Assembly: GCF_036321535.1 (NCBI RefSeq)
Contig: NC_087436.1
Location: 69,504,001-69,568,000, forward strand
Length of the DNA stretch: 64,000 bases
Direction of reading: 5' to 3'
Source of the DNA: Camelus dromedarius
Taxonomy: Eukaryota
The notes under the pieces were generated by a model, which was given only the letters and a program-made list of their open reading frames with translations, did not search any database and had not been told where the DNA came from. A program made the position numbers and the translations under genes. Numbering within the stretch: position 1 is the stretch's first letter; each line of letters opens with the position of its first letter. Positions 13,388 to 48,022 of the stretch are shown in pieces.

Positions 13388-13890
13388 ACGATGATTAATT
13401 TTATGTGTCAACTTGATTGGGCTATGAGATGCTCAAATACTTGGTCAAATATTATTCTGGGTGTTTCTGTGAGGGTATATTAGGATGATATTAACATGTA
13501 AATCGGTGTCTTAAATAGAGCAGATTGTTCTGTCTAATGTGGGTGGGCCTTATTTAATCATTTGAAGGCCTGACTAGAACAAAATGTCTGAGTAAGAAAG
13601 AATCAGGCTTCCTGCCTGATGACCTTTAAACTGTAACATCAGTTTTTTTTCCCTGCCTCCAGAATGGAACTAAAACGCTGGCTTTTCCTGGATTTGCAGC
13701 CTGGCAGCTTTTGACCTGGAACCATACCACTAGCTCTTCTGTTCTTGGGCTTTCAGACTCAGACTGGAACTAATTCATCAGCTATTCTAGGTCTGTGGCT
13801 TGCCAATTCATCCTGTAGATCGCGGGACTTGCCTCCCTCTAAAATCACCTAAGCCAATTACTTATAATACATCTCTTTATGTGTATACAC
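13388..13890 (+). mobile_element. MLT2 (ERVL) LTR
   Basis: Starts GATGATTAATTTTATGTGTCAACTTGATTGGGCT, matching the MLT2 5' consensus. Confidence 0.8.
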
Positions 13891-14097: not shown

Positions 14098-14525
14098 ATG
14101 CAGGCAAAGGAGAGAGAGAGGTAAAGAGAGAGGGGTGAGAATTTACTTACATGATTGTAGAGGTAGACAAATTCCAAGATCTGCAGTTAGCAAGCTGGAG
14201 ACACAGGACAGCCAATGTTGTCGTTTCTATCTGAAAGCCAGCAGGCTAGAGACCCAAGGAGAACTAATACTTTAGTTCAAGTATGAAGGTAGGCAGGAGA
14301 AATTCCCCTTACTCCCAGGAAGGTCTGCCTTTTTATGCTACTCAAGTCTTCAGCTGAGTGGATAAGGCCCATTCACGCTAGGGAGGGCAATTTGTCTTAC
14401 TCAGTCTACCAATTCGAACACTAATCTCATCCAGAAATATACTAACAGACACACCTGGAATGTTTGAACAAATATCTGGGCTCTCTATGGTCCAATCAAG
14501 TTGACACACAAAACTGACCATCACA
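14017..14525 (-). mobile_element. MLT2 (ERVL) LTR, opposite orientation, with internal (CA)n
   Basis: TATTAGTCAGGGTTCTCCAGAGAAACAGAA ... CAAGTTGACACACAAAACTGACCATCACA is the reverse complement of MLT2 ends. Confidence 0.8.
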
Positions 14526-17500
14526 GAGGGGCTACTCATTTTTTTTCTGCTTCATTGTCACTGAACTTTGTAAGGAAAACTCTAGCCTTGCTCTTGCTTA
14601 TGTGTTTCTCATTTTACAACCTCTCCCCCCGGCCCTCATGGAACGTAAACGTCCCAGAAATAGAAGAAACTGTAGAATGTAGACATTATAAAATTCTTCA
14701 TAATCTATTGTTCCGTTTATTTCTGAGGATCTGTCAGTCAACAATAATGGATACAACCAGATGAATAGAGTTTGAATTAATAACAACCTAAATTATGTAA
14801 TATCTTAAATAAACTTCTGTTGCTTCTAGTAAAATAACTATAACTAGATATCAGAGGTTGCCAACCTCTGTTTGGCATTGATTGATACATATGTTTTTAT
14901 CAGGCAAATATTTTGTCAGTGATTTGGTGATTCCAATTTCCCTGAGGGCACTTTAAACATTGACTGCACTTGCTCAGCTTTCCTTAGTCACTTGTGTAAT
15001 GAGACCACAAGTGAAATCACTACTATGAAAGCTAGCGGCTGCTTAAACTCATATGCCTAACATTGATTTGTAGACAAAAAGACCTGCTTTTGATTAGGAA
15101 AAAAATATTTTGGTGTAGCAGCCTGGTATTTTAGAGGTAACTCCTCCACATCCTGCTGCCACCCTCACTCCTCAACCCCTTAAAAAAGTCTAGAAGAGAG
15201 AAAGCTGGACACATTAAAAATTTTTTTACATTGTAAGACATGCATTATATGTCAGATTTTCTGTCTTATAATTAATGGGTATGCACACAAAAATAATGTA
15301 TCTTTTAATTTCTCCAGTAAAAATAGTTATTGAATAATGGCTTTGTCTTAAAATAGACAGCATTTTATGCTAGAAATATGGTGAAAATAATTTGAATTTT
15401 GTATTTTCCTTACTGCTCACAGAGTAGAAGAATTAGGGACTCAGAGGCCTAGAAAAGGGTAGATTAATGACAGAGCAGAATCTAGCACAGAGTAGACACA
15501 GACAGGTTTAGAGCAGGCAAAAGCCTAAGGCAAGTGTGCCAATGAGAGGGCGTTTAGGAAAATTAAATTAAATATTCTATGTTAAATTGCTGTCTTCTCT
15601 ATGCTTCTCATTTATCCTCTATTTTTGATAAAGTATCTGATTGCTTCTGTAGTACCTTTGTTAGTGCAGGGGCAGGTTCTAGTAGAAAAAAATTCTCCAG
15701 CATGAATTACTGGAGAACATGTTGGCAGCCTCATGAAAGGAACAAGTAATGGCCAGGAACTTAGCAAAGGAGGAGATGGAAAGACGAGAAATTGAGTATG
15801 TAAACACTCAGCCTGGAATAAAGTAGGTACTGGATGGACTGAATGAATGAATGAATGAATAGTGAGACCTGCACTTCTCATCCAGACTCTTCTAAGACCT
15901 TGGGGATAGTGTTACTTCCGAGTTTGAATATAAGGGATGAATGACAGCAGAAGTCAACATAGTATATTCAGATATTAGATTTGAATTTTGCATAATATAT
16001 GAAATAGCTTTCCTCTATTAATTTCCTAGCAAATCATTTCTTCCCAGATAATACAAAGGTAAATATCAATTCAAAATCTCATTTGAATACTTGTATAGTC
16101 TGAATTAATTGAGGGAAACAAGTGAGGCCCTCTTTTTCTTCTTTGGTTCCAGAATGTAAAATTCAGAAATATAATTCCACTTACCAACTCTTATTATGTA
16201 TACAGATTATTATGAGAAAGCAAATGGATATTGAGGATACAGTTTTATATATCATCAGTTACAAATTATATAGACACATTTATTTCCCGCATAGTAAGTG
16301 ATTAACACTATGTTATACATTTAAATATCAGTGCTGGTCCTAGTTCATGTCTTTTCCATTTTTTTCTTTATTTTAATGTAACTTATACTATTATTTTATA
16401 TTTGTATAATTGATTCAAAATCGTTATTTAAATACTGTCCATGTACAAACGCCATGTACTATTGTCATCACTTGAGAGCTTGTTAGAAATGCAGAATCTC
16501 AGGCCGCAATCTAGAATCAGAATCTGTATTTTAATAAAATCCTCAAGTGATTTATGAGCACAAGAAAATTTAGGAAGCATGATTTTAAACCACTTTTTAT
16601 CTACTCTCTAATAATACAAGGTAAACATAAATGATTCATCAAAATGAATTGTGTCTCCTAGAAATTAAATTGTATTGATTCTGCTTAACATATATGACCT
16701 CTGATCATTACCCACAGTGACGATAAGCCTTACTTTCATTTTGTGGGAGTGATTAGGAAACGGAGTTGCAGGGAGTCTCCTCACACACACAGCAAGTGAG
16801 TGCGTGACTCAGAAATTGACTTGTTTTCCTAGCTCTGCTCTTAGTCATACTGCAAATCTATGTCGGTGGGCCTGACCAGAGTCAAAAGATGTTCCTGATT
16901 TACCTCATTCAAATAAGGGTGTTCACAGTTTGTAAGGAATTTTTTTTTTTTTTTGACAAAGCCAACTACCCTCTGACAAAAAGCTTACGTTCCTTATGCT
17001 GCAAAAATGTTGTCAGAGAACTATGGATATGAGTAACAAGATGAAAATAAAGCAGCGGATTGTGAACACATCCTAGTCACATCTGGGACGTGGGTGTAAC
17101 CAACTCAGGGACTTAGGAGGAGCAGTCCTGAATTAGCATTGCCGCATCACGACCAGTGAATGATGAGGTTTAGAATTATGTGAGAAGGTAAATTCAGGGG
17201 AGGGGACCCAAAGACATACAACAACTGATAACTAATGTGATTGAGTCAGATACCCTGGAAGATGGTTTATAAATGACATTTACTTTAGAATATAAAAATT
17301 CGTTCCTAAAAATCTTGTAAGTCTTACGTGAAAGTGACAGACCACGTTACGCGGTTACTTACTGTAGTTTACATGGCACTGCGCGTCTTCCTAGTTAGAT
17401 CGAGCCGCAGGCTGAAAGTCTCAATGCCTAAAACTGGCTTTAAAAAGGAAAAACGGAAAAAAGAGAAAAGTGGAAAATAATGCCCCTCTTAGGAGACACG

Positions 17501-25260: not shown

Positions 25261-27736
25261 CATGGACACAATGTTAATGTTTAATAAAGAGTGTTTGTGG
25301 TCTGAGAGTGAAGCAGAACATATGACTTTAGAATTATTAGAGCTTGCTTAATATAAAACTGTTTCTTTTCCCAATTTTGCTCCAGCTGAGTATTAATGGA
25401 GTCTGGTTTCATGGGCACTTTTTGGAGAGTATTGCTTGCAATAAAAACCACCACAATTTATCAATAATCTCCACAATGCTGAAACCAGTTCTGTAACAAA
25501 TGTCACTTTTAAGTTTTTGTGGGGTCCTTGTTTTTCAATTTTTTATAAAATATGCATAATAAAATATTTTATTTTGTGCCATTGTGTAATAATTTCCAGT
25601 CACTAGTAGTTCCTAGAAATCAGAAGAAAAAAATAAAAACACAAAACAGGACTTTTAAGTGTAGCAAACAAATGTTCAAAAAAATCTTTCCATGATAAAA
25701 TGAAATTTATTACAACAAATATTGCAGAGCTAATGAGATCAGGGAAACCCCAGAATGAAAGCTGCCTCTCCATGACAAGACTCTGAGTTGATAATATTAA
25801 TAATAATACCATATTAGAATTTGTAACCATTAGCAGGTGACTCTGTGGTTAAGTATGTACTATCGACATAGGGTTGCAAATTGGAGCCCAGATATTAAAG
25901 CTGCAATAAAATTTTTCCAGGTTGATAGTGGCCACAGATGAAAGTAGAAATATCCTCTAAGGAAAATTATCTTAAATATGGGTCTTTCGGGATTCTAACA
26001 TGTAAAGTTCACATAATTATTATCTCACAATAAAATTACATAACACAGAATGAAATAATCCATAATAAAATAGAGATTGTAGAAACAGAAATAATGGATT
26101 CAAATCTTCCAATACGTCAGGTGTTGGATTTATCAGATATTGAATTTAAGTTAATTATGTATAAATGTTTTAAGAAATAAAATATTAATAAAAATTAAAC
26201 TATCAAGATGACTAACACTAAAATGAAATTTAAAAAATTAAAATCATTGAGGTGAAAAATTCAATAGATGGGCAAACAGCAAAATAGTAAAACTGAACAG
26301 TCCTGAAAAGGACTATAGCAAGAGAATATGAAAGAAAAGAGTCGAGCTGTAGAAAATTAGATGAAATGAGAAGTTCTAATGTATGTGCAATTGAAGTTCT
26401 GAAAGGAGAGAACAGAAAAAATGGAGCTGATAAATTACTTACATGGTGAATGAAAATTTTCCGTGAAGGATAAAGTATGTGACTCTTCAGGATCAAGATG
26501 TACAATATATTGTAAACAGGACACATATTAAAAGAAAAAAAATCCGCCGGGAGGCACATAGCTGTGAAGCTGCAAAGAACGAAAATGAAGAAAATATTTT
26601 AAAAGCAAGAAGAGATGCCTTGTAAAGGAGTAACAGTTGGGCTGCCAATAGATTTCATAAACAACAATGGAAACCAGAAGGCTGATACAAAAAAGCACTA
26701 AAGCAGGTACCACAAAGCTATTCATCTCTGTATCCTCAGGACTCAGAGCTAAGTGAGCCCTATGAGCAGGTAGCCACGTGCCCGGTAACTAGCAGGTGCC
26801 TTCCACTTTGGAGCTTCATTCACAAAGAACCCTCTTAAATTGCACTGTAATGGATTTTCTTGGACTAGGTTTTACTTCAGGCTGTAGTTCACAACACTTT
26901 CTAAACCTGTTTCTTAAAATTATTATTTAAAAATTTTAAGATGATTGTAGATTCACGTGAAGTTATAACAAATAATACAAAGATCCTAAACCCTTTACAT
27001 AATTTTCCCCAGTGGTAACATCTTGCAAAACTGTAGTATTATACCAACACAGGATATTGATGCAGTTAAGATGCAGAGTATTTCTGTCACTGCAAGTTCT
27101 CTCTGGTTGTGCCTTTATAGCTTTACCTGCTTCACTCCAGTCCCTTCCTTAAATCCTGACAACCACTAGTTATTTTTGTATTTCAGTTTTTTTAAAAAAA
27201 AATTTTATATATATGGAATCATACAAGATTTAAACTTTGGAGGTTAGTTTTTCTTTATTCTGCATAAATCCCTGGAGATTCTTCTTAGTTTTATGTATCA
27301 ATAGCATATTTCTTTTTATTGCTCATTAGTGAATCTTGGGTAAGAGTCTGTACCACAACAGAGAATGGTTAATGGCAGAGGGAGCAATGCTCTACCAAGT
27401 GTATTCTGATGTGGACCCGATGGAGGGTAAAGGATAAAAGAGGTCTGACTGAAAGGTCAGTAATTATACATGGAGATCTGGATCTAATATTATGGACAAT
27501 ATTATGGACAAAAAGGTGGTCATTACTGAGAATATTGTGAGCAATTATCACCAGCAGCAGGAGTAGAATTTTACAGTGGTTTCAATATGCTACATGAAGA
27601 ATAAAAGTAACGGGACCTTCCTAACCTTCCTTGCTTTAGGTGCTACAGAATCAGTAGGATTAGCCCAATCTTTTGAAACTTAATATATCTAGACTAGCCA
27701 TAAAGGGGAAATGAGGTATTTTAACATCATGAGCTT

Positions 27737-27857
27737 GGGTGGGGGGTGGTGTATAGCTTAGTGGTAAGTGCATGTTTAGCGTGTATGAGGTCCTGAGTTC
27801 AGTCCCAGTACCTCATTTAAAAAATTAAAAAAATAAAAATACATAAAAAGTAAAAAA
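27737..27857 (+). mobile_element. tRNA-derived SINE, Vic-1-like (camelid)
   Basis: GGGG..GTATAGCTTAGTGGTAAGTGCATGTTTAGC..GAGGTCCTGAGTTCAGTCCCAGTACCTC with A and B boxes, followed by an A-rich tail. Confidence 0.75.
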
Positions 27858-28870
27858 GTGGCAAATGATAGAAAGAATATTTTAAAATGTTATCATTGTG
27901 AACTAGATTAAATTGCCTATGTCAAAACATGATGTCTTAAGATAACTTCAGATTAATTCAATGAGTTAATTGTAATCTTTGTTTACATGGTGACTTAAAG
28001 GCTGTAATAAAATTACATTCTTCAGAAGCCTGGGTTCTAAGAGAATGAGAGACTAAAGAGTTACGGGAAAATCTTAAGTCAGAAAGATAATTTAATATGG
28101 AGCCTCTAAAACTACATAATGTTATATTTATGGTAAAGAAGTGAGAAGAAACTAGTTGACAAATTTTCTCTGAAGACAGAGAATAAAAAGAGGATTATTA
28201 CCCATGATTTATGCAATTGGTCTCCAAAGTGACATGCATGCACTCCAGAGCACTGAAGTCAATAAAATGTGATTCAAGAAGAAAATATTTACTTACTTTT
28301 AAATAAATATACACATGTGTATAGATACATATTTTATTCACATACATAGTATACATAAGTGCATGAAGATACAAATTTATTTACAAAATTCCAGCAGAAC
28401 TCTTTTCCTAAATGCTGGACAAAGTTGAAAACTGAGTACATGATTTGATAAGCACAGGAAAGTTTACATTTTTTTTTCCATTTAGACCTTGATTTTAGTA
28501 ACATATATTTTTTAATCTTTATAATCACTGAGGCAAAGTAGTGAAATAATCCTAATTTAGAGCCATATTTCCAAATCAGAGTGTTAAACCAAAATTTCAA
28601 AAGATCATAAAGTCATTTCAATTACATTTTTCTCATTCTAAGTGCTTTTACTGAATATTTGACGTAAGTGGTTGGCTGCATAATTACTCTCTCTGCAGCT
28701 TACCGACTAACAAAATTGCAAAAATTAGAATACCTGTTTTAAAGAACTGAATGAAGATTGATTGAAGTAAAGTTATGCGGATTGTATAGCACAGTGCTTA
28801 GTACATAGTAAGTTCTCAATAAATATCAGCTATTAGTATTGTAGCTCTTTCCTATGTTCTTTATACCCTT

Positions 28871-29137
28871 GCAAAACATTTGATCTTGTCTAGAACATCT
28901 ATTAAGACATTTGGTCCATGCTGAAAGGTTCTTGAAATTTGGTCATATTTTGTCCTGTCCATAATGCCCATGTGAACTTTTGGCCCATGTCAAAAATTCC
29001 CTATATTTTATCCTGTCCAAAATCATTTGCCATAGACCTAATATGCTCATGGACATTTTGAATAGGACTAAATTTCAAGGACCTTTTGGCATGGACTAAA
29101 TGTTTTATGGGAGCTTTGGATAGGGTCAAGTGTTTGC
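28871..29137. repeat. Imperfect inverted repeat (~78-bp arms) built from an ~18-bp repeated motif
   Basis: Left arm 28871-28949 aligns to the reverse complement of 29061-29137 with 17 substitutions and 2 indels by hand. Confidence 0.85.
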
Positions 29138-29685
29138 TAATCCTTCTTACACTTAGTTCTCTGTATTTTCTTTTTATATCTAACCTGGCTTAAAGTTCTT
29201 TGAATCTGGGATCCATGTTTCATTGTTTATTACGTCTAAAACACATTATTTATACATAGGAGGTATTTAATAAATTTTGTTAAGTTTGACATTATGATAA
29301 ATCACTGTTGATTTTTCTCTCTGATAGTAACTAATGAATTATTATGCAAACAATACTTTGATAACATATTCATTGGCTACTTTCTTGGTGCTGTTTCAGA
29401 TTATTAACTATAAACTATAATAGCAGAAGACTATGATTAGTAAACTGTCCAAAATTTAATCTATAGTAGAATATTCTAGGGAAATACATTTCAATGAACT
29501 CCTTGTACAAAAATGTCTTTGATCTTATATTATACTAGCATCATTCTAAGCATACAACAAAGGGACTTTAAGTCCTTTTTAAGATGATATTATGGTTCTA
29601 ATTCATCCATCTTGAAGACTACCTTAAATATCTTCCTTACTAGTCCAATGATGCAGCTTTGAATTAAAAAGATTTTAAATTTCAC

Positions 29686-29691
29686 TTTATT
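29686..29691 (-). terminator. Candidate proximal poly(A) signal of SULT1D1
   Basis: AATAAA on the minus strand ~230 nt after the stop codon; AT-rich context so it may be chance. Confidence 0.35.
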
Positions 29692-29923: not shown

Positions 29924-30148
<225 letters not shown>

Positions 30149-32599: not shown

Positions 32600-33260
32600 A
32601 AGAATAGATTACCTACTTAACATTTAGAGAAGAATTAATATGAATCCTTCTCAAACTCTTGCAAAAAGTAGAAGGGAACACTTACACACTCATTTTATGA
32701 GGCTTGCGTTACCCTGATACCAAAGCCAGGCAAGGACAGTAGAAGAAAAAAAATTCAGATCGATAACTTCAGTGAACACCAAACCAAAAATGCTGAGCAA
32801 AATACTGGCAAAAGATATTCAGCATGTTAAAAGGATTATATATGGTGATCAAGTGGGATTTATTCCAGGAATGCAAAGATGGTTTAACATCTGCAAATCA
32901 TCAATGTGATACAGCATATTAACAAAATGAGACGGAACATACCTCAACACAATAAAAGCCATATATGAAAAGTCTAGAGCTAACATACTCAATGGTGAAA
33001 AGCTGAGGGCTTTTCCTCTAAGATTCGGAATAATTGTTAGCTATAGTTAATAATACTACATTGTACATTTGAAAGTTGCTGAGAGTAGATCTTAAAAGCT
33101 ATCATCATGAGGATAAAAATGTGTTAACTATCTGTGGTGATAGATTTCAACTAGACTTATTGTGGAGATGATTTCACAATATAGACAGATATTGAATCAT
33201 TATGTTGCACACTAGAAACCAATATTACATTATATGTCAATTATATCTAGATAAAAATAA
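32600..33260 (+). mobile_element. Old L1 fragments (ORF2 RT region plus 3' end)
   Basis: CATTTTATGAGGC..ACCCTGATACCAAAGCCAG, GATCAAGTGGGATTTATTCCAGGAATGCAA; L1MA-like 3' end. Confidence 0.8.
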
Positions 33261-44420: not shown

Positions 44421-45758
44421 TACGACCAAAGAGCATATGTTAATTTATGTGTAGCCATTTAGGTTTTACTATGTCAGAAAAAAATCAGCCTCAAATATCA
44501 CTTCCACAGATGAACTATTTGTATAATGGTTGCTTCCAGAGATTGTTGTAATGGTTTCCTGCTTGTTAATATATCAAAAAATAGCAAAAACAAAAGAGCC
44601 TATACATTCTCAGGGACTAACCTTTCTTTTCTAAATTATATCTCAACAAAGAAATGCGAAGTGGTTATGGTCCTAAACAATTTGGGTTTTGTGAACTCTT
44701 CAGAGAGCAAGGCAAGTAGAACAAAAGAAGGAAAAAACAGCTTTTGCCAAAACAAGCTTGTTTTTCATGTCTGCAAAGATCTGTATCATACATTTGTTTA
44801 CTTCTGAGCAGGAACCCTATGCTCTCATGCAGTGTTTGTAATTTTGTCACATTAGAATCCCCCAAGTTCAGGGCTTTTCTCCTAGAACTTGTTATATATT
44901 CCTTTGAAGTAATTTTGATATTTATAATCTAAAAAAGAAAAGATCAATAGTCAGTATATTTATTAAAAATTATTTTTTCTCAATTCCTTTAAAAAATGAG
45001 GCAGGAATATAAAGGAAAGTTGACTTTAGAGAGTGTAGTAATTAGAACAGTTGATTGATTATGGGCTCAAGTAAATGAATTAGATAAAAGGCAAGAGAGA
45101 GTTTCATTTCTCTGATATCTGATATTTACTGCATAACTGGAAGACTCTATTGTTAAAATACCTGGAAAAATATAAATTTATTTTATTAAAATATGGTGGA
45201 TTTACAATATTGTATTAGTTTAAATTATATAGCAAAGTGATTCAGTTGTATATATATTTTATGAAAAATACAAATTATTGATTCTTATTGAGTCATATTA
45301 AATTCTCTTGAGATCATATACTGAGGTCAGTAGTTTTTTAAATTTATAACAAAATATTTTCAAACAAATCTATAAAATATGTTTGAAATAATACAATATT
45401 ATTTTATAAAACATGTTTAAATATTAAAATAAGTAAAATATTTAAACATTAAAGTGTACAGAAAATGTATATGTATACATATTCTAATGTACCTACATCC
45501 TTTATATATACAGTTTTAATCATTTTTATTTGAATTTAAAAAACAAAAGGCAACAGTATTAATTTTTCCTCAGATATAGCCTCCATTCAATTGCAGATCT
45601 TTCAAAATAAGAAGTGAGTCTGTGTAACTTAATACAAAACTGTCCCATAACTCCTACACATTTCCCTTGTTCCCTTGTCAAGTGATCTGCAGATCCCTGG
45701 GCTTACACATACTGATCAATAACTAGCCAGCTAGTACAAATAAATAAAAGAATCTTAC

Positions 45759-46432: not shown

Positions 46433-46632
46433 NNNNNNNNNNNNNNNNNNNNNNNNNNNNNNNNNNNNNNNNNNNNNNNNNNNNNNNNNNNNNNNNNNNN
46501 NNNNNNNNNNNNNNNNNNNNNNNNNNNNNNNNNNNNNNNNNNNNNNNNNNNNNNNNNNNNNNNNNNNNNNNNNNNNNNNNNNNNNNNNNNNNNNNNNNNN
46601 NNNNNNNNNNNNNNNNNNNNNNNNNNNNNNNN
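46433..46632. other. Assembly gap (200 N)
   Basis: Run of N. Confidence 1.
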
Positions 46633-47640
<1,008 letters not shown>

Positions 47641-48022
47641 CATTGTCTAAAATCTTTTATTAAACCTTCCAGTAAGATCAAGTAAGCAATAGCATCAAAA
47701 TATGCAGAAAGGGTGTCAGGGTCTTGGAAAACATCTCAAGAGAAAAGCACTGTTAGAGGAAACACTGCATCATGAGTGCTGCATAGCAAATTATACCCTG
47801 TGCATAAACATATAAATCGATGTCTCTAAGGCAAAAAGTGATCTAGATGTGTCAGGTTTAATGTGCCAAAGTATTAAGAATGTCTTAACAAATACATTTT
47901 GTTTAAATAATACTTCTTGTTTATATTATCCTTTTGTGTGTGTAAGATTAATATTGTCAAAATCTCTGTATAAATCTGAGTTCTTTCAATGAATTTAAAT
48001 TTTTTTTTAGCTTTTAAAAAAA

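What the first reader, a model, noticed from the sequence alone, without database searches (positions are those of the whole stretch)
28871..29137. ~270-bp hairpin with strand-biased G-U mismatches downstream of SULT1D1
Seen: 28871-28949 pairs with 29061-29137. By hand alignment, 14 of 15 transition mismatches give G-U pairs if the + strand is the RNA (A-C if the minus strand is); there are also 2 transversions and 2 bulges. Neutral decay of a DNA palindrome should split transitions about evenly between these classes. Inference: the bias suggests selection on a + strand (antisense to the SULT genes) structured RNA such as a long pre-miRNA/endo-siRNA-like stem. Alternatively it is an A-C-rich, ADAR-type duplex in an extended SULT1D1 3'UTR, ~0.8 kb past the stop.
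Basis: partly seen in the sequence, partly recalled or inferred. Interest (0 to 1): 0.7.

Follow-up and report, generated by a model that had tools for sequence, protein, structure and literature searches.

The report
Foldback transposon relic, one-sided RNA stem
A 267-base palindrome behind a broken sulfotransferase gene is most likely the remnant of a small DNA transposon built from repeated 29-base units, and the outer part of it has lost almost none of its ability to pair on one strand, which hints at, but does not prove, a preserved RNA stem.

Summary
The hairpin and its 14 G-U: 1 A-C count are real; the + strand folds at z -10.5, the - strand at z -5.1. (1) The "loop" is part of the palindrome: nine ~29.5-nt units, four per arm plus a central one, with a weak 8-9-nt flanking duplication (p about 0.03). 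This is foldback/MULE-type MITE anatomy. (2) The inner arms have the opposite bias (8 A-C: 1 G-U), so the whole element is 15:9, unremarkable. The anomaly is local: 2 of 69 outer pairs break + strand pairing against 14 of 49 inner; scan-corrected p 1e-4 to 7e-3. (3) The SULT1D1-like gene has two in-frame stops, and four poly(A) hexamers lie before the hairpin. No homologue, Rfam family or expression data was obtained. Best reading: a transposon relic whose outer stem was kept pairable on an antisense RNA (0.35), nearly level with founder-inherited asymmetry (0.27) and chance (0.25). The scan holds no look-alike of this element, but an unchecked note describes a similar G-U-biased hairpin in this genome.

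The parts
28862..28870 (+). Left copy of a possible target-site duplication (TATACCCTT)
   Evidence: Best flank match falls exactly at the arm ends; 1 mismatch and 1 gap against the right copy; 2.8% of 2920 random position pairs score as well. Weak.
28871..28941 (+). Left outer arm (units U1, U2, start of U3)
   Evidence: 69 pairs with 29069-29137: 53 WC, 14 G-U, 1 A-C, 1 transversion; longest unbroken + strand helix 39 bp
28942..28951 (+).
   Evidence: Gap in the whole-element alignment
28952..29000 (+). Left inner arm (U3, U4); U4 forms its own small hairpin centred near 28989
   Evidence: 49 pairs with 29019-29068: 34 WC, 8 A-C, 1 G-U, 6 transversions; secondary inversion centre 28989.5
29001..29028 (+). 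Central unit U5, same orientation as the left arm; direct repeat of 28945-28965 at 29003-29023; its last 10 nt overlap the right inner arm
   Evidence: 19 of 21 identical; unit alignment
29019..29068 (-). Right inner arm (U4', U3')
29069..29137 (-). Right outer arm (start of U3', U2', U1')
29138..29145 (+). Right copy of the possible target-site duplication (TAATCCTT)
29226..29691 (-). Four AATAAA/ATTAAA hexamers on the minus strand (29686, 29455, 29266, 29226) between the SULT1D1-like stop and the hairpin
   Evidence: common by chance in AT-rich DNA, use not shown
29924..30036 (-). Last coding exon of the SULT1D1-like gene, stop at 29926-29924; the gene carries in-frame TGA codons at 42026-42024 and 35139-35137
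   Evidence: two exons hit PDB 2zpt 'tyrosine-ester sulfotransferase' best (that this entry is mouse SULT1D1 is recalled)

Best explanation
The 267-nt element is the relic of a small non-autonomous foldback-type DNA transposon: two long inverted arms made of ~29.5-nt tandem units, inserted with an 8-9-nt target duplication (anatomy shown; transposon origin inferred, about 0.7). After insertion both arms decayed. In the outer 69 pairs nearly only those changes survived that still pair in a + strand RNA (C-to-T and A-to-G on +, in both arms), while the inner 49 pairs were released and form a branched top. The inferred cause is purifying selection on a ~70-bp helix in a + strand transcript, antisense to the SULT genes, acting as a long double-stranded substrate (Dicer, ADAR or another dsRNA-binding protein), not as a canonical pre-miRNA. 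Shown: structure, mismatch pattern, its statistics. Inferred: transposon origin, age, transcription, selection, partner protein.
For: Nine-unit build, similarity between non-partner units 10.8 against 6.3 +/- 0.3, largest of 300 shuffles 7.2. TSD-like flanks at the exact ends. Composite tandem-repeat TIRs with 8-10-bp TSDs define foldback/MULE elements (PMC3169594, PMC5225508, passages). Pair-breaking changes 2 of 69 outer against 14 of 49 inner, Fisher p 7e-5; scan-corrected p 2.5e-4, 1e-4 and 7e-3 under three neutral spectra. Transversions as well as A-C are depleted, which a strand-biased mutation rate does not explain. A copy 10% diverged from its founder would be expected to have about 9 pair-breaking changes, P(2 or fewer) 0.005. 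Minus-strand read-through would bias mutation the other way (A-to-G on the non-template strand, extending past 3' ends: PMC2927911, passages). MITE hairpins are a known source of mammalian small RNAs (PMC1784062, PMC10671384, passages).
Against: No orthologue, paralogue or covariation: 0 of 83 fetched loci resemble it and no second copy lies in the 64 kb. Transcription of the + strand is not shown and no + strand gene was found nearby. The whole-element count is 15:9 (p 0.31) and the inner arms are biased the other way (1 G-U of 9 transitions, p 0.02 at 50:50, 0.005 at 58%), which release from selection alone does not predict. The window background already leans to G-U on + (58%). The strand difference in folding energy (-31 kcal/mol) is nearly reached by ordinary windows elsewhere (-30.7, -29.7 among 469). 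The finding was picked from many windows, so p near 1e-3 is not decisive, and an unchecked scan note (e1-7852251) put a similar hairpin in this genome down to mutation history. The TSD evidence is weak (p 0.03).
Confidence: 0.35

Rival explanations
1. Same transposon origin, but the asymmetry was already in the founder element (arms that differ by transitions), and this copy has simply kept it, because it is young or because its DNA sequence is constrained (for instance as an enhancer). No RNA structure is selected at this locus.
For: Some arm differences recur at the same unit position: TTTAG in both U2' and U3' against TTTGG in the left arm, and CCTAT in U1' and U3' against C(C/T)TGT in U1, U3 and U5. 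The sharp switch from G-U to A-C along the arm (changepoint permutation p 5e-4) looks like a built-in feature. At 5% divergence from a founder or less, 2 pair-breaking changes are unremarkable (P 0.16). Some ancient mammalian repeats, MER121 among them, are reported under purifying selection (PMC2689173, passages).
Against: About one such coincidence is expected by chance (my estimate). The decayed TSD and the old age of DNA transposons in most mammals (recalled) argue against a young copy. It moves the question to why a founder would be strand-biased.
Confidence: 0.27
2. Neutral decay of an old palindrome (transposon relic, or a local inverted duplication of a 29-nt minisatellite). The run of G-U pairs is a chance cluster helped by a mild regional strand bias and picked out among many windows.
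For: Whole-element 15:9, p 0.31 at 50% and 0.69 at 58%. Regional bias 110:81. Scan-corrected p is only 7e-3 if transitions make up 75% of changes with a 58% bias. The neighbouring gene is broken. No Rfam family at gathering score.
Against: p is 1e-4 to 2.5e-4 under the other two spectra. In 150 simulated neutral decays of the outer arm none reached the observed strand energy difference (-31 against +4 +/- 10; the real loop was kept in these simulations). The local control palindromes are balanced: 7 G-U: 8 A-C at 45318-45559 and 4:3 at the mir-544-like hairpin.
Confidence: 0.25
3. A DNA-level process: the arms correct each other as a single-stranded hairpin or cruciform, and repair removes mismatch types unequally (G-T on the minus strand and most transversions), leaving G-T on plus.
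For: Template switching can create and maintain hairpins (PMC8794818, passages). With DNA energies both strands fold similarly (-47.3 and -41.9). It needs no transcript.
Against: Template switching copies a whole tract and should erase G-T as well. Mismatch-type-selective correction in a mammalian germline hairpin is my conjecture, with no support from any call. It does not explain the reversed inner arms.
Confidence: 0.07
4. An A-C-rich duplex in an extended minus-strand 3'UTR of SULT1D1, kept as an ADAR substrate; the inner arms (G-U on minus) would be its paired core.
For: Lies 0.79 kb past the stop on the gene's strand; minus fold z -5.1; the inner arms favour G-U on minus. 4 of the 14 mismatched As are in a UAG triplet; against other As, 5'U p 0.014 and 3'G p 0.009.
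Against: Against intact G-C pairs, the matched control, the context effect is not significant (p 0.72 and 0.10). Longest unbroken minus helix 10 bp. Two premature stops in the gene; four poly(A) hexamers come first.
Confidence: 0.06

Closest known systems
Foldback / Mutator-like non-autonomous elements (Tm1 of root-knot nematodes, PMC3169594; Muta1 derivatives of Aedes, PMC5225508)
   Same: Long inverted arms (118 aligned pairs, 87 WC) built of tandem sub-repeats, unequal between arms, no coding capacity, possible 8-9-nt target duplication.
   Different: Unit is ~29.5 nt (12-15 nt in those families); no dispersed copies or transposase shown; no sequence likeness tested. The only MuDR entries listed for human in PMC5753468 (section 9) are the Ricksha families; whether this element equals a named or unclassified Repbase/Dfam family could not be checked.
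MITE-derived mammalian miRNA hairpins (Made1 to mir-548, PMC1784062; MER135 to miR-224 and MER5A1 to miR-544, table in PMC10671384)
   Same: A palindromic transposon relic that would fold into a stable RNA stem if read through.
   Different: Far larger (267 nt against about 80), 39-bp unbroken helix, branched 111-nt top; strongly strand-dependent, whereas Made1 hairpins form from both strands; no Rfam match at gathering score and no small-RNA evidence.
Ancient constrained mammalian repeats such as MER121 (PMC2689173, PMC4158753, passages; Kamal et al. 2006 not held, recalled)
   Same: Old, low-copy, DNA-transposon-like, possibly under selection. MER121 was my recalled lead for the family.
Plant MIR2630 precursor model (Rfam RF04097)
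   Same: Best Rfam match, 49.7 bits, E 1.3e-8, with similar GGUCC/GGAC(C/U)AAA motifs in its consensus.
   Different: Far below gathering (144 bits); four of four unrelated palindromes tried also hit miRNA models, at best 38-80 bits each, so the match reflects shape. miR2630 was itself rejected as a miRNA by its describers (PMC4212123, passage).

Membership tests
Foldback/MULE-type MITE | Long terminal inverted repeats | tested here: met
   118 aligned pairs, 87 Watson-Crick
Foldback/MULE-type MITE | Arms built of tandem sub-repeats | tested here: met
   Nine ~29.5-nt units, 10.8 against 6.3 +/- 0.3; periodicity at lags 28-31 and 58-59
Foldback/MULE-type MITE | 8-10-bp target-site duplication | tested here: inconclusive
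   9/8-nt flanks with 1 mismatch and 1 gap, p 0.028
Foldback/MULE-type MITE | No coding capacity | tested here: met
   None of the 23 stop-to-stop frames of 110 aa or more overlaps it; shorter frames not examined
Foldback/MULE-type MITE | Dispersed copies with shared ends, and an autonomous partner | not testable with these tools
   No genome held; none in the 64 kb; 0 of 83 loci from viral and metagenome scans, which hold little mammalian DNA
Canonical animal pre-miRNA | About 70-90-nt hairpin with a short loop (PMC1784062) | tested here: not met
   267 nt, 111-nt branched top
Canonical animal pre-miRNA | Match to a curated miRNA family | tested here: not met
   No match at gathering score here; only sub-threshold plant models
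Canonical animal pre-miRNA | Precise ~22-nt mature and star reads | not testable with these tools
   No read data obtained
ADAR-edited 3'UTR duplex (minus strand) | Lies inside the transcript | tested here: inconclusive
   Four poly(A) hexamers upstream of it; gene has two premature stops; no reads
ADAR-edited 3'UTR duplex (minus strand) | Mismatched As in ADAR-preferred context | tested here: inconclusive
   Enriched against other As, not against intact G-C pairs
ADAR-edited 3'UTR duplex (minus strand) | A-to-G differences between RNA and DNA | not testable with these tools
   No read data obtained
MER121 or another named Repbase/Dfam repeat | Alignment to the family consensus | not testable with these tools
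   No repeat library on hand; Kamal 2006 not held; supplements of PMC5753468 not readable
Conserved structured RNA | Covariation across orthologues | not testable with these tools
   No orthologue obtained

The most novel reading that the evidence does not exclude
An undescribed mammalian foldback (MULE-like) MITE family with 29-nt units, whose copy here was domesticated as a two-faced RNA element: the outer 69 pairs fold on the antisense (+) RNA and the inner 49 on the sense (-) RNA, so that each strand makes a different duplex from one palindrome.
Probability: 0.07. Interest if true: 0.75.

Novelty: new member of a known kind. Interest (0 to 1): 0.36.

Why it matters
If the outer stem is conserved, this is a case where a single genome's mismatch pattern reveals the strand and the limits of a selected RNA helix in a transposon relic, and it gives a candidate antisense double-stranded RNA in the SULT1B1/SULT1D1 drug-metabolism cluster. 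If the family is absent from Dfam/Repbase, it would add a foldback-type element to the short list of Mutator-like repeats in mammals. If neither holds, it is an ordinary decayed MITE next to a pseudogene, and a warning that G-U counts depend on where the arm is cut.

Tried and rejected
Whole genome: none held. Rfam: nothing at gathering score at this locus; MIR2630 and MIR2606 sub-threshold hits rejected as shape-only after controls (the AT-rich window palindrome gave no hit). Homologue searches: viral contigs 0, 0 and 34 loci, metagenome contigs 49 loci; none of the 83 matched by blastn or nhmmer; these collections hold little mammalian DNA, so this is no evidence of absence. Earlier findings: no look-alike by sequence or place, none by words MER135/MER121. 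No read-level data were obtained. Literature: six short motifs of the element gave 8 papers whose titles and abstract starts are unrelated (search listing only); searches for MER135, Eulor/UCON, MER121, G-T-biased palindromes and EvoFold hairpins listed no paper on this locus or on a G-U-biased mammalian foldback element; the library lacks most subscription papers, and supplements of PMC5753468 could not be read. RNA editing fixed by retroposition rejected: polarised by the unit majority (my reading), the G-U pairs come from about 9 C-to-T and 5 A-to-G changes in both arms, not from one type. Selection against sense-strand pairing rejected: it would let transversions through, and there is 1 against 14. 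CpG decay: only one tandem pair (28922-28923) fits. Strand energy difference alone is not discriminating. The bacterial promoter scan is irrelevant to a mammal and showed nothing above chance.

Full report
Observation. The + strand folds at -114.1 kcal/mol (z -10.5) and the - strand at -84.8 (z -5.1), each better than all 200 shuffles. Among 469 tiled 270-nt windows the only stronger + strand folds lie in the GC-rich stretch near 52 kb. The five other inverted pairs that blastn found in the window sum to 110 G-U, 81 A-C and 155 transversions, so the region leans mildly to G-U on + (58%, p 0.04), and the hairpin differs from these controls at p 0.005.

Anatomy. The element is larger in kind than a stem with a loop. 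It has a periodicity of 28-31 and 58-59 nt and resolves into nine units of about 29.5 nt: U1-U4, a central U5, and U4'-U1' in reverse. Units that are not pairing partners resemble each other far beyond shuffles (10.8 against 6.3 +/- 0.3). The left arm has a 10-nt extra piece at 28942-28951; past it the palindrome continues to about 29000/29019 (score 39 against 17.5 +/- 3.3, 0 of 2000). The flanks TATACCCTT and TAATCCTT match best exactly at the arm ends, but 2.8% of 2920 random pairs score as well. Arms of tandem sub-repeats with 8-10-bp duplications are the features given for foldback and Mutator-like elements in PMC3169594 and PMC5225508 (passages seen). I therefore read it as a non-autonomous foldback-type transposon relic (about 0.7); a local inverted duplication of an old minisatellite is the alternative. 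No second copy lies in the window and no genome was held, so dispersal is untested.

The bias in its true register. Outer 69 pairs: 53 WC, 14 G-U, 1 A-C, 1 transversion. Inner 49 pairs: 34 WC, 1 G-U, 8 A-C, 6 transversions. The total, 15:9, is unremarkable (p 0.31). What stands out is the split: changepoint permutation p 5e-4; pair-breaking changes on + 2 of 69 against 14 of 49, p 7e-5; and, allowing any segment of 8 or more mismatches on either strand, p 2.5e-4 (symmetric spectrum), 1e-4 (window controls) or 7e-3 (58% bias, 75% transitions). The longest unbroken helix is 39 bp on + and 10 bp on -. By the unit majority, the G-U pairs arose from both C-to-T and A-to-G changes in both arms (my reading), as wobble tolerance predicts and a single editing enzyme does not. 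Transcription-linked mutation from the minus-strand SULT gene would push the other way, towards A-C on + (PMC2927911, passages); that fits the direction of the inner arms, not the outer.

Against this reading. The inner arms are themselves one-sided (1 G-U of 9, p 0.02 to 0.005), which simple release from selection does not predict. Some arm differences recur at the same unit position, as expected if the founder was already asymmetric; a copy within 5% of such a founder needs no selection (P 0.16), one at 10% does (P 0.005). The strand energy gap is nearly matched by ordinary windows. The finding was chosen from many windows. An unchecked note of this scan (e1-7852251) describes a 300-nt hairpin in a dystrophin intron of the same genome with G-U also antisense to the host gene and ascribes it to mutation history; I did not test it, but two cases in 21 noted windows make a shared neutral cause more plausible.

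Surroundings. Two SULT genes lie on the minus strand. Two exons of the gene to the right hit PDB 2zpt best (its identity as mouse SULT1D1 is recalled). That gene has in-frame TGA codons at 42026-42024 and 35139-35137 and Leu for Pro in the PAPS-binding loop, so it is probably a pseudogene; the SULT1B1-like gene showed no stop in the six exons examined. Four poly(A) hexamers lie between its stop and the hairpin. The ADAR neighbour preference seen among the 14 mismatched As (p 0.014, 0.009) is not significant against intact G-C pairs (p 0.72, 0.10). The SINE at about 27735-27830 looks camelid (recalled; Rfam scores it weakly as tRNA).

Comparison with what is known. No Rfam family reaches its gathering score here. 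The plant MIR2630 match (49.7 of 144 bits) is not evidence of kinship, because four of four unrelated palindromes tried also hit miRNA models. MITE-derived miRNAs are known (PMC1784062 and PMC10671384, passages), but this element fails the size and loop test for a canonical pre-miRNA. MER121 was a recalled lead that I could not test. Searches of viral and metagenome contigs gave 83 loci, none related. No orthologue and no read data were obtained, so conservation and expression, the two decisive tests, remain open. My literature searches listed no description of this element; they do not cover Dfam, Repbase, miRBase or most subscription papers.

Verdict. A real, well-formed foldback-type palindrome with an outer stem that is improbably intact on one strand. 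Selection on an antisense RNA helix is my best single explanation (0.35), close to founder-inherited asymmetry (0.27) and chance decay (0.25). It works like a MITE-derived hairpin; membership of any named family is untested. Interest 0.36.

Noticed in passing
window 45.9 kb to 29.9 kb, minus strand: The SULT1D1-like gene has two in-frame TGA codons (42026-42024, 35139-35137) and Leu for Pro in the PAPS-binding loop: a probable pseudogene, or assembly errors.
   Followed up: partly
window 16462-16551, minus strand: Match to Rfam mir-544 above gathering score (73.2 bits against 66.5). miR-544 derives from MER5A1 (PMC10671384, table), so this may be a MER5A1 copy and not an expressed miRNA. Its mismatches are balanced, 4 G-U: 3 A-C.
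   Followed up: partly
window 13390-13591 and 14324-14522: Two inverted copies, 67% alike over 202 nt, that look like MLT2-type LTRs (recalled), upstream of the SULT1B1-like coding exons.
   Followed up: no
window 45318-45559: Very AT-rich self-palindrome, 59% complementary, balanced mismatches, no Rfam match.
   Followed up: partly
window 48.2-53.2 kb, minus strand: L1-like ORF2 fragments and a GC-rich stretch (51.9-53.1 kb) that looks like an L1 5' end (recalled); an inverted L1-like piece lies at 32613-32925.
   Followed up: no
window 46433-47650: A 200-N gap followed by about 1 kb of TTTC/TTCC simple repeat just upstream of the SULT1D1-like first coding exon.
   Followed up: no
L038, L042, L045, L047, L059, L076: Near-perfect palindromes of 190-400 nt in metagenome contigs, some with short internal tandem units; L042, L045 and L076 are copies of one family. 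Unrelated to the window; they look like young MITEs.
   Followed up: no
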